Shown in pieces: positions 18,404 to 20,265 of a DNA stretch of 64,000 nucleotides (within the stretch, counting starts at the first letter, position 1; each line of letters opens with the position of its first letter). The stretch comes from Marsupella aquatica (taxonomy: Eukaryota; Plantae; Marchantiophyta), in NCBI GenBank assembly GCA_973895155.1, contig OZ316895.1, positions 19,140,022 through 19,204,021 of the forward strand, given 5' to 3'. A model generated the notes under the pieces. The model had not been told where the DNA came from. It ran no database searches and worked only from the letters and a program-made list of their open reading frames with translations. Both the position numbers and the translations under genes were made by a program.

Positions 18404-20265
18404 TGTCGTCGGGATGGAAAATAAAGGAAGGGAAAGAAAACCTTATTTTGGTTTGGAAGTGTTTGGAGATGATTTGAAATTTGGAAGGACTTTTATTGAG
18501 TTAGGGAAAATGTAATGAGACAAAAGAAGAATAAGTGAGAGCAATTTTTGCTTAGCTTTACAAGATTTCAATTGGATTAATGTGGTTGCGACACGTGGAG
18601 GCCTGGGAGGATTTAAAGTTCATAAGGACAAGAGCATGGCAGTTAAGGGAGATGTTAGAGTGAATTTTGGAAACAAGTCGAAGGTAGAGGCTGACGCGCG
18701 TTACAAGGTAAAAGGGTGAAAATGGCCGGTGTGGTGTGTGGATTAGATTTTTGGGAGGAGGCTCAAGTGCGTGATGGAGTTTTGGGGAAATAGACAGTGA
18801 AACAGCCGAATGTGTGGTTATGGAGTGATTTTTGGTCATGGACAAAAGCACGAAGCAGAGGAAAAACGTCGTTAAGTATTCTCGGCTATGCAATTGAAGG
18901 GATTTGAATGTGAAGAAATGAATGGCAAACAGTCGAACAGAAGTTCCAAGATGCTGAGTTCGTACAGAGATCTTCTTTGGTTAAGAATTGAGACTAAGAA
19001 ATTTAGTGTGATAGAAGCAGAATGGAGTAGAGGCTGAATTCAAGATGGAGTCCGGGAGTTCTGATGAAGAATAGAGATATCAAAAGAGTTGCGTGCGTCA
19101 TCGTGGAGGTTGAGAAAATTTGTGCTGCAAAAGTAGAGGGCGTTGAAGTTGTTAAGCTCTTGTTTGATGGGATGACTGAAAAGAACATCCAAAAGCTTGA
19201 AGGCAAAGAAGGGGAAATGAGAAGAAGCGAAGGGAGGAGAACGGGGCGCACCAGGGTGGATATGGAGGGATTTTGTTTTTGGAGGAGAGGGGCAAAAGGG
19301 GAAAAAGTGAAAGGTAATGATGGTTTCAGGTGAATGGAGAATGCATTGTTAGAGTTCATAGGAGAAGGAAGCTACGGTTGCGGATTGACGTCAGGAGGGC
19401 TTTTGGAAGTTAGAATTGATCGGGTGCTGAGAAGCTGAGAAAACAATGAAGGAAATCGGGTGCTGAGATGTAGAAGGCTGTGGAACTTGAAATTTGTGTT
19501 TTACAGAAGACCTCGGAAGCGATGGACGTTGCTGAATGGAGAAGAAAACAAGAGAATGCTATGCGCAAAGGAGGGGAAACTCAAGGAATGACGACGCTGA
19601 TGTGAGGAAGACTTGAAGGGATCAGGCTATGGTGTGAGAGAATTATAAAGATTGGAGTTCCAGGGAGGAAGGGAGAGAAATGACCGATCATTTTTGGTAT
19701 GTAAGGAATGGGAGTCAAAAACTGCAAGGAGTGATGGGCGACGATGTCAAGAGAATCCACGAGTGTGCCTGGAAGCTTCCAAAAAGAATCAAAGGTGGAG
19801 GGAATTGAGACCGCTTTGGAACATTTAGGAGGAAACGGCTGAATCCAATAAAGTATTCTGGAGTCTAAGCTTTTGGTGAAAATGATTGAAAGTTGCATCC
19901 GGAACGAGACAGTAAGATTCCCAGGAAGTGAGTGGGCATGAAATTGTGAGTAAGAGGACCAAGAAGAAGGAGTGACTTTTCATGAGATTAATTAAGAAGT
20001 TCCAGTTGGAAGTGTGGGTTACTTGTAATTTTCTACATTTGATGTTGTGGGATTTTAAGGAAGATTGCAAGTTGATTAAGTTACATTCATTCAGCGAGTG
20101 GAATCCAGTAGTTGAAACGATATTTAAGTTAGGAATTGTCCGCTGCCATGGGATTTGAGGTTTGTGGTCGGAATTTTTTTCTGTTGTGGGACTGGAAAAT
20201 AGAGAAGAGAAGCAAGAAAGGACAAGAGGAAGAAAGCAAGAGGAATGAAGATGTAAAAGAAGCTC
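18404..20265 (+). repeat. Long Gypsy 3' LTR (>1.8 kb, end not seen)
   Basis: Follows the PPT. Its start matches 5462, and it is homologous at both ends to the minus-strand segment 59300-61910. Confidence 0.7.

What the first reader, a model, noticed from the sequence alone, without database searches (positions are those of the whole stretch)
19982..20265. Two small coupled ORFs under purifying selection inside the long Gypsy LTR
Seen: ORF-A 19982-20158 (58 aa, MRLIKKFQLEVWVT...SFSEWNPVVETIFKLGIVRCHGI*) aligns without gaps to 59979-59788 on the minus strand (MKFVKKFQLELWIT...SFDEWNPVIGSIFRLGIVHYHGV*). Many differences are synonymous (ttc/ttt, cag/caa, ttg/cta, gaa/gag, tca/tct, aat/aac, cca/ccg, gta/gtg, tta/cta, gga/ggg), and the stop is in the same place. 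ORF-B starts at ATG 20148, in the +1 frame and overlapping the end of ORF-A (MGFEVCGRNFFLLWDWKIEKR...). It also differs mostly synonymously from 59798-59613 (MGFEVTGRKFFLLWDWKLEER...). Inference: these LTRs carry a bicistronic cassette of unknown micro-proteins, or one protein made by a programmed +1 frameshift. LTRs are normally non-coding.
Basis: partly seen in the sequence, partly recalled or inferred. Interest (0 to 1): 0.78.

Follow-up and report, generated by a model that had tools for sequence, protein, structure and literature searches.

The report
Two micro-genes in a retrotransposon LTR
A plant jumping gene carries two overlapping reading frames of about 60 codons whose protein sequence is kept by selection across diverged families while the DNA upstream is not; they likely sit inside its terminal repeat, are likely made as two separate small proteins from one message, and would help the element control its own RNA, which is untested.

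Summary
19982-20264 aligns without gaps to 59964-59682 (68% identity). Synonymous sites are saturated and replacement sites are not (ORF-A pS 0.86, pN 0.27; ORF-B 0.78, 0.11). Only these two frames are stop-free in both copies, and permutation p is about 1e-4. Upstream DNA is unalignable and non-coding. Public contigs pile up from ORF-A's ATG onward, so many diverged copies keep the block. The host element is a Phygy-like Gypsy. Its 3' LTR starts at 18404, and both copies lie 1.4-1.8 kb behind the same palindrome, so an LTR location is likely (about 0.7). The LTR's far end was not found, and a 190-bp LTR plus tandem unit remains possible. Two proteins made by leaky scanning or stop-start reinitiation fit better than a +1 frameshift: weak first AUG, strong second AUG, no shift signal, and ORF-A homologues with other tails. 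No Pfam, PDB or fold match was found. ORF-B is a predicted helix with a basic stretch, heptad leucines and CxxC. Function is inferred only. Earlier scan notes report a different, large LTR-borne gene in this genome; sequence look-ups for this cassette returned nothing.

The parts
19982..20158 (+). ORF-A, copy 1 (58 aa); first AUG in weak context (T at -3)
20148..20268 (+). ORF-B, copy 1: first 39-40 codons, AUG in strong context (G at -3, G at +4); cut by a LINE piece at 20269
59788..59964 (-). ORF-A, copy 2 (58 aa; an upstream in-frame ATG at 59979 would give 63 aa)
59613..59798 (-). ORF-B, copy 2, complete (61 aa): aromatic N-terminus, basic stretch, heptad M36-L43-L50-L57, C46-x2-C49, acidic tail
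59341..59612 (-). AT-rich 3' flank with three AATAAA, as densely covered by diverged contigs as the ORFs; candidate poly(A) region (inferred); ends at a Copia piece near 59332
32168..32317 (-). Broken third copy: second half of ORF-A, 62 extra bases at the A/B junction, then the first five codons of ORF-B; bounded by a LINE piece
18364..18403 (+). Hairpin and polypurine-tract-like motif conserved in the lineage, directly before the 3' LTR start
   Evidence: 13 of 41 related 3' regions
18404..18596 (+). First 193 bp of the 3' LTR (starts TGTCG), 190 of 193 bases identical to 5462-5655
18581..18598 (+). Palindrome-bearing motif TGTGGTTnnGACACGTGG, shared with copy 2 (61781-61764, minus strand)
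   Evidence: 2 matches, 0.00 expected in 100 shuffles
18599..19981 (+). Purine-rich, non-coding, fast-evolving spacer (U3-like, inferred); unalignable to the 1.8-kb counterpart in copy 2
5462..5655 (+). Remnant of the 5' LTR, preceded by CCGG (NCGN target); rearranged just after the palindrome, gag lost
7630..17833 (+). Decayed Gypsy pol (protease, RT, RNase H, integrase) interrupted by a nested Copia element at about 9838-16195
61764..61781 (-). Palindrome motif of copy 2, 1804 nt upstream of its ORF-A

Best explanation
Several diverged families of a Phygy-like Gypsy retrotransposon keep two overlapping, protein-constrained reading frames of about 60 codons that likely lie in the terminal repeat, are likely translated as two separate accessory proteins from one short message, and would act as regulators of the element's own RNA. 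Shown: codon-level purifying selection, conserved starts and stop, position 1.4-1.8 kb behind a shared palindrome, and position downstream of the 3' LTR start in copy 1. Inferred step 1 (about 0.7): the block is LTR, transcribed from a promoter in the variable upstream part and ended in the AATAAA-rich flank. Inferred step 2 (about 0.7): ribosomes start at ORF-A's weak AUG or scan past it to ORF-B's strong AUG, with reinitiation at the nearby stop as a possible second route. Inferred step 3 (about 0.35): ORF-B, a predicted long helix with a basic stretch, heptad leucines and an acidic tail, dimerises and binds nucleic acid in the nucleus to promote expression or export of the genomic RNA, as retroviral accessory proteins and CERV do. 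ORF-A is a small predicted beta-beta-alpha partner made in a fixed ratio.
For: Selection. Breadth: summed contig depth over the ORFs is 5.5-16.5 times that just upstream in copy 2 and 4.2-8.7 times in copy 1, in 4 of 4 runs. The rise starts in the bin holding ORF-A's ATG. Contigs of 1173 and 1220 bp fit only 169 and 233 bp inside the block, and a loose-end row from 4 contigs shows an ATG at the same codon behind unlike DNA. LTR location: 3' LTR start fixed at 18404. Both LTR copies continue past the palindrome with like sequence. In related loci the leader from PBS to gag ATG is 31-183 nt (median 45; 31 of 35 PBS sites measured), leaving no room for the cassette, while LTRs span 640-1185 nt (6 loci). 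Two proteins: -3 is T at ORF-A's AUG in both copies and purine with +4 G at ORF-B's; copy 1 has only one weak internal AUG. Both real ORF-A homologues (P0001, P0003; 2 of 3 hits in 1.84 billion proteins) end in other tails without ORF-B motifs. The lineage's true frameshift (gag-pol) shows a conserved heptamer (GGATTTT in 22 of 25 -1 junctions), and the A/B junction has nothing comparable. ORF-B shape: helix 7-43, pLDDT 67; heptads and charges.
Against: No LTR right end, PBS or 3' target duplication was found. The only CGACA in 18404-20268 is at 18589, which would make a neat 190-bp LTR with inverted ends. The 5' LTR is truncated, so presence in both LTRs could not be checked. dN/dS rests on two copies. 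The 21 listed contig variants inside the ORFs are 8 synonymous and 13 non-synonymous (0 stops), although they are the best-supported rows only (40 of 264) and mostly sites where this copy differs from most contigs. Copy 2 has three internal AUGs in ORF-A, one in strong context, and an upstream in-frame AUG with A at -3. ORF-B's strong context could be forced by ORF-A's Cys-His-Gly codons. One contig in one run lacks a net 4 bases just before ORF-B's AUG, which would put A and B in one frame. None of 86 related loci carries either ORF, so the cassette is not needed by the lineage at large. The function rests on sequence shape only; heptads in a 61-residue helix can be chance.
Confidence: 0.5

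Rival explanations
1. The LTR is only 190 bp (TGTCG...CGACA, 18404-18593). The palindrome is LTR end plus primer site, and ORF-A/B are two small genes in the internal region: a long leader before gag, or a non-autonomous partner element. Copy 1 is then a tandem LTR-internal-LTR-internal unit.
For: The only lineage-type right end (CGACA) in the region lies at 18589, followed by CG and TGG. In related loci GACA precedes the PBS at 30 of 35 sites. Copy 2 has no pol or PPT in view. The G/T-rich flank after ORF-B resembles a 3' untranslated region.
Against: Needs a tandem unit at copy 1. The bases after TGG differ between copies 1 and 2, do not match the lineage's PBS motif (no window match at 3 mismatches) and have no self-priming partner (best 6 nt). 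Leaders in relatives are 31-183 nt, and LTRs 640-1185 nt.
Confidence: 0.25
2. One protein of about 115 residues is made by a programmed +1 shift at the xTT-TGA 'shifty stop', with ORF-A alone as the unshifted product.
For: Overlap, frame and stop are identical in two copies with saturated synonymous sites. One contig has a net 4-base loss that would fuse the frames. The lineage already uses frameshifting for gag-pol.
Against: The P-site codon differs (ATT versus GTT), and re-pairing on TTT would mismatch the first position (general knowledge). No stable structure after the stop (z -0.83 and 0.04). A strong-context AUG sits 8 nt before the stop. P0001 and P0003 end without ORF-B sequence.
Confidence: 0.15
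3. The block is a captured host exon, a remnant of another element, or conserved for an antisense or RNA-level reason, and is not a functional cassette of this retrotransposon.
For: Copy 1 has a 157-codon antisense ORF across the block. Antisense shadow frames also show a synonymous excess. Conservation continues into the non-coding 3' flank.
Against: The antisense frame has stops in copy 2 and fewer identical residues. Antisense ORFs of that length are expected from composition. No Pfam, PDB or named protein match, and no Rfam match near threshold. Same orientation and distance behind the same motif in two diverged families.
Confidence: 0.07

Closest known systems
Phygy clade of non-chromovirus Ty3/Gypsy elements (REXdb, PMC6317226; passages and one supplement table row read)
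   Same: NCGN target at the 5' junction (window, L009, L061), short compact gag-pol in relatives, and a conserved PBS motif in 33 of 86 related loci (read as tRNA-Trp type from recall; REXdb lists Trp for 81% of Phygy).
   Different: REXdb lists no extra ORFs for Phygy, but it counted only ORFs of 250 codons or more. The relatives fetched here have 0.6-1.2-kb LTRs and no A/B homologue. No RT tree against REXdb was made.
MMTV-type sag, a gene inside a retroviral LTR (PMC4667437; passages read)
   Same: Protein-coding constraint makes part of an otherwise poorly conserved LTR alignable across diverged elements.
   Different: Single larger gene of animal betaretroviruses with an immune function. 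Here there are two ORFs of about 60 codons in a plant retrotransposon. No sequence relation was seen (no Pfam or PDB hit).
Additional ORFs of plant LTR retrotransposons: env-like, Grande gene23, Retand, RIRE2 (review PMC7264820; main text read)
   Same: Family-wide accessory ORFs of unknown function, proposed to act like retroviral accessory proteins, some nuclear.
   Different: Those lie in the internal region between pol and the 3' LTR, often antisense, and are long. These are sense, tiny, paired, and downstream of the PPT.
Leaky scanning through small 5' ORFs in RTBV and badnaviruses (PMC5902531; passages) and stop-start reinitiation (PMC10275272; passages)
   Same: Weak first AUG, stronger second AUG, few internal AUGs in copy 1; second AUG within 20 nt of the first stop.
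   Different: No shunt hairpin or conserved TURBS-type motif was found. Copy 2 has an internal strong AUG. Whether gag is read from the same message is unknown.
CERV of C. elegans Cer1 (PMC10309623; abstract only)
   Same: Precedent for an LTR retrotransposon accessory protein that serves export of its own genomic RNA.
   Different: Made from a spliced mRNA, larger, animal. No sequence link was tested or seen; it is a works-like comparison only.
KnitGypsy-Dnmt3 of Klebsormidium nitens with DIRS-like repeat layout (PMC5890265; passages)
   Same: Gypsy domain order; earlier scan notes link an internal CA-CG-TG palindrome to this layout, and such a palindrome is present here.
   Different: The 5' junction here is a canonical TG start after an NCGN target, and no methyltransferase domain was hit between protease and RT.

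Membership tests
Phygy-type Ty3/Gypsy (REXdb) | Gypsy domain order PR-RT-RH-INT | tested here: met
   Asp_protease_2 at 7630-7992 (E 0.0026, under the curated cut-off), RT and RNase H stretches read, Integrase_H2C2 at 16259-16963 (E 3e-15)
Phygy-type Ty3/Gypsy (REXdb) | 4-bp NCGN target-site duplication | tested here: inconclusive
   5' side is CCGG before TG; NCGN also in L009 and L061 (3 of 3 upstream LTR starts found; background 2.5%); the 3' duplicate was not found
Phygy-type Ty3/Gypsy (REXdb) | tRNA-Trp primer binding site after the 5' LTR | tested here: inconclusive
   Lineage motif in 33 of 86 related loci, none in the window, where that part is deleted; its tRNA identity is recalled, not tested
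Phygy-type Ty3/Gypsy (REXdb) | RT/RH/INT cluster with Phygy reference sequences | not testable with these tools
   Reference domain sequences were not among the 5 supplement files held as text
LTR-encoded gene (sag-like layout) | ORF lies between the LTR start and the LTR end | tested here: inconclusive
   Start fixed at 18404; end not found; CGACA at 18589 is a rival end
LTR-encoded gene (sag-like layout) | ORF present in both LTRs of one element | not testable with these tools
   5' LTR truncated at about 5655; no genome held
LTR-encoded gene (sag-like layout) | Purifying selection on the ORF | tested here: met
Programmed +1 frameshift | Conserved shift-prone site | tested here: inconclusive
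   xTT-TGA-G in both copies, but the P-site codon differs and the letters are dual-coding
Programmed +1 frameshift | Stimulatory structure near the site | tested here: not met
   z -0.83 and 0.04 downstream, 0.85 and -1.06 upstream; not all +1 sites have one
Programmed +1 frameshift | Homologues encode the two parts as one protein | tested here: not met
   P0001 and P0003 end in unrelated tails; one contig with a frame-joining loss is the exception; proteins over 224 aa were covered only
Leaky scanning (RTBV/badnavirus type) | Weak first AUG, strong second AUG | tested here: met
   T at -3 for ORF-A, G/A at -3 and G at +4 for ORF-B, in 2 of 2 copies
Leaky scanning (RTBV/badnavirus type) | First ORF free of strong internal AUGs | tested here: inconclusive
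   Met in copy 1 (one weak in-frame AUG); copy 2 has three, one strong
TURBS-type termination-reinitiation | Second AUG within about 20 nt of the first stop | tested here: met
   AUG begins 8 nt before the stop; distance rule from PMC10275272
TURBS-type termination-reinitiation | Conserved 18S-complementary motif upstream (UGGGA, recalled) | tested here: not met
   Present 100 nt upstream in copy 1 only, absent in copy 2
Split-repeat KnitGypsy-Dnmt3 type | Element begins at the internal palindrome (A-coding-B-A-B) | tested here: not met
   The upstream repeat begins at the PPT-defined TG after an NCGN site

The most novel reading that the evidence does not exclude
A plant LTR retrotransposon lineage encodes, inside its LTR, a bicistronic pair of previously unknown micro-proteins that act as a Rev/Tat-like or anti-silencing regulator. 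Every copy and every solo LTR would then carry a working regulatory operon, a layout missed by surveys with a 250-codon cut-off.
Probability: 0.3. Interest if true: 0.75.

Novelty: new variant of a known kind. Interest (0 to 1): 0.52.

Why it matters
Plant LTRs are annotated as non-coding, and the main survey of extra ORFs ignored anything under 250 codons (PMC6317226). A selected pair of 60-codon genes in or next to an LTR shows a class of retrotransposon accessory proteins that such surveys cannot see. It adds two protein families with no named relative. If LTR-borne, the genes would be duplicated in every insertion and survive in solo LTRs, and could act in trans on the family or on host genes. 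It also gives a compact, testable case of bicistronic translation from a plant nuclear message. Earlier, unchecked notes of this scan describe a 1,100-1,200-aa gene inside 4.7-kb LTRs of another family in this genome, so LTR-borne genes may have arisen more than once here.

Tried and rejected
Antisense coding: long minus-strand ORFs tile the spacer but are expected from composition (4 and 5 ORFs of 100+ codons against 2.5 and 3.0 in 500 shuffles), and the two spacers share no translated match under E 0.05. Family searches: Pfam 0 hits for 11 of 11 ORFs tested in and around the two copies; PDB sequence search 0 hits for A and one weak hit (E 0.02, unrelated) for B; Rfam nothing near threshold. 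Protein searches: none for ORF-A alone or ORF-B; the ORF-A profile gave only P0001 and P0003 again. P0002 is a repeat protein and was dropped as chance. Locus scans with A or B in viral and metagenome contigs found no relative, nor did the integrase in viral contigs. 86 loci of the same Gypsy lineage held no A/B homologue and no other small ORF conserved between families in my tblastx screen; many loci are redundant. Folds: ORF-A homologue model pLDDT 50.6, no match with E under 0.001 in PDB or BFVD; weak eL38-like rows were rejected. Complex prediction of A with B gave no verdict (score 0.00, alignments unused). No RNA holder was listed. The ESM Atlas gave no answer. No whole genome was held, so no tree-wide dN/dS and no intact element. 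Copy 3, with A and B in one frame around a stop, was first read as evidence against the frameshift, then given little weight, because its 62 extra bases sit exactly at the junction and may be later damage. Contig depth was not used as copy number. Literature searches for genes inside plant LTRs (listings only) showed no such case; subscription journals and REXdb sequence files are not covered.

Full report
Check of the observation. The two stretches align on one gapless diagonal, 19982 to 59964, with 194 of 287 bases identical; the 29 neighbouring offsets give 65-98. Differences fall at codon positions 18/15/33 in ORF-A (58 codons) and 6/2/18 in ORF-B (39 codons). Synonymous sites are saturated (pS 0.86 and 0.78) and replacement sites are not (pN 0.27 and 0.11). 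Over ORF-A every other frame carries stops, and the antisense shadow frames score lower. Fisher tests give p 1.3e-4 and 5e-5, and column permutations give 3 and 0 of 20000. Identity on the diagonal drops to background just before ORF-A's ATG and at 20269, where a LINE piece cuts ORF-B of copy 1. Only copy 2 shows the complete 61-residue ORF-B. A third, broken piece of ORF-A lies at 32317-32240.

Breadth. No genome was held, so I laid public contigs from four runs (two studies; the best holder may be the source of the window) on both copies. Summed depth over the ORFs is 4.2-8.7 times that of the upstream spacer in copy 1 and 5.5-16.5 times in copy 2. Depth is not copy number, but the pattern is backed by pieces. 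Contigs of 1173 and 1220 bp fit only 169 and 233 bp inside the block and run on unlike. A loose-end row from four contigs has an ATG at the same codon behind unrelated DNA. Coverage stays high through the 270-bp AT-rich flank after ORF-B, which holds three AATAAA. Against a simple reading: the 21 listed variants inside the ORFs are 8 synonymous, 13 non-synonymous and 0 stops. They are the best-supported 40 of 264 rows and mostly mark sites where this one copy differs from most contigs, so they are not a dN/dS estimate. Two of the eight listed in-ORF or flank indel sites affect coding frames in single contigs, as expected for decaying copies.

The element. Copy 1 follows a decayed Gypsy pol (7630-17833) with a Copia element nested in it. 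A pattern from its RT fetched 86 loci, about 39 with integrase 44-53% identical. In 13 of 41 of their 3' regions the same hairpin and purine tract precede TGTCG, as at 18404. A copy of 18404-18596 lies at 5462 (190 of 193 identical), preceded by CCGG. NCGN also precedes the upstream LTR start in L009 and L061, the only two loci where one was found, against a background of 2.5%. NCGN targets are the mark of the moss clade Phygy in REXdb (PMC6317226, passages and a supplement row). I call the element Phygy-like; no tree against reference sequences was possible. The host is a plant; 'bryophyte' is inferred from this lineage and from unchecked scan notes.

Is the block in the LTR? Both copies lie in the same orientation 1388 and 1804 nt behind a shared motif, TGTGGTTnnGACACGTGG (2 matches, 0.00 expected). 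The spacers are unalignable and non-coding. In copy 1 this is downstream of the PPT, so family sequence there is LTR unless the locus is a tandem unit. In relatives the leader from PBS to gag is 31-183 nt and LTRs are 640-1185 nt, so a leader has no room for the cassette. The case against: the right end, PBS and second target copy are missing, and the only CGACA, the lineage's right-end motif (GACA before 30 of 35 PBS sites), sits at 18589 inside the palindrome. That would make a 190-bp LTR followed by TGG. The bases after TGG, however, differ between copies and match neither the lineage PBS nor a self-priming partner. I put the LTR reading at about 0.7. None of the 86 related loci has either ORF, so the cassette is an acquisition of some families.

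One protein or two? ORF-B's AUG begins 8 nt before ORF-A's stop. ORF-A's AUG has T at -3 in both copies, ORF-B's has a purine at -3 and G at +4, and copy 1 has a single weak internal AUG. This is the pattern of leaky scanning described for RTBV and badnaviruses (PMC5902531, passages). The distance also fits stop-start reinitiation (PMC10275272, passages), although the TURBS-type motif (recalled as UGGGA) is not conserved. The two credible ORF-A homologues among 1.84 billion representatives (P0001, P0003; the third hit is a repeat protein) keep the core but end in other tails, without His-Gly or any ORF-B motif. As a positive control, the lineage's gag-pol junction is -1 in 25 of 27 loci, with GGATTTT in 22 of those 25 (loci partly redundant). 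The A/B junction has no such invariant signal and no stable flanking structure. For a fusion: overlap and stop are identical in both copies, and one contig in one run lacks a net 4 bases just before ORF-B's AUG, which would join the frames. Copy 2 also has a strong internal AUG. Copy 3 has A and B in one frame around a stop, but its 62 extra bases may be damage. I put two proteins at about 0.7 and a +1 shift at about 0.15-0.2.

What the proteins do. Neither has a Pfam, PDB or named relative. The ORF-A family folds poorly (pLDDT 50.6) as two strands and a helix, with no fold match. ORF-B is predicted as one helix over residues 7-43 (pLDDT 67), with a basic stretch, M36-L43-L50-L57 in heptad register, C46-x2-C49 and an acidic tail. 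I commit to a dimeric nuclear regulator of the element's own RNA, with ORF-A as partner, at about 0.35. This rests on shape and on precedent only: accessory ORFs of plant elements are proposed to act this way (PMC7264820, main text), and CERV does so for Cer1 (PMC10309623, abstract). An anti-silencing role is the next option.

Comparison and novelty. Genes inside LTRs are known from retroviruses (MMTV sag, PMC4667437, passages). Extra ORFs are known from plant Gypsy elements, but in the internal region, and REXdb counted only ORFs of 250 codons or more and lists none for Phygy. Seven literature searches (listings only) showed no paired micro-ORFs in a plant LTR; subscription papers are not covered. 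Scan notes on this genome describe a different, 1,100-1,200-aa LTR-borne gene and split-repeat Gypsy elements with an internal palindrome. These were leads: the palindrome is present here, but the split layout is not met at the 5' junction. Sequence look-ups for this cassette returned nothing. Verdict: real, selected, unannotated coding island of a retrotransposon; a new variant of a known kind; interest 0.52.

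Noticed in passing
window 5646-5770: The 5' LTR remnant breaks at the palindrome: ACGT appears twice around a 13-bp insert, followed by a fold-back of the motif, a second tandem copy, and an 18-bp piece also found in the element's 3' untranslated region near 18005. It looks like a template-switch or insertion-excision scar at an NCGN site.
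   Followed up: partly
L001-L079, gag-pol junctions: Conserved -1 frameshift signature: pol is in the -1 frame in 25 of 27 loci, with GGATTTT in 22 of these, followed by a GGRCTATT-like motif.
   Followed up: partly
window 18364-18403 and 13 related loci: A small hairpin directly upstream of a G-rich, T-interrupted polypurine tract is conserved in structure, with changed stem letters, between the window and relatives.
   Followed up: partly
window 60017-60068 (-): A second patch of raised contig depth 55-100 nt upstream of ORF-A in copy 2, holding a TATA-like TACTTAAA; candidate core promoter; no counterpart seen in copy 1.
   Followed up: no
window 9838-16195: Near-complete young Copia element (296-bp LTRs, 98.6% identical) nested in the RNase H region of the Gypsy pol; an older relative lies at 56627-59332.
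   Followed up: no
window 33437-37534 and 61810-63735: Intact two-ORF LINE (ORF2 1071 aa, endonuclease plus RT) with a 99.7% identical truncated copy; pieces of this family cut all three ORF-A/B copies or their flanks.
   Followed up: no
window 47812-54813 (-): MED12 gene as one uninterrupted 2333-codon frame, with a diverged inverted copy of its N-terminal stretch just upstream (about 54820-55050).
   Followed up: no
window 55960-56450 (-): Integrase C-terminus followed by a PHD-finger-like Cys/His motif, from a different Gypsy-type element (read by eye, not searched).
   Followed up: no
L022 588-1133 / L036 5715-6260: A 181-codon sense ORF begins just after the PPT in one related family, inside its presumed LTR; not tested for selection.
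   Followed up: no
L056, L069, L071, L078: Distant relatives (integrase about 28-30% identical) with an extra 1,100-1,260-codon ORF before pol.
   Followed up: no
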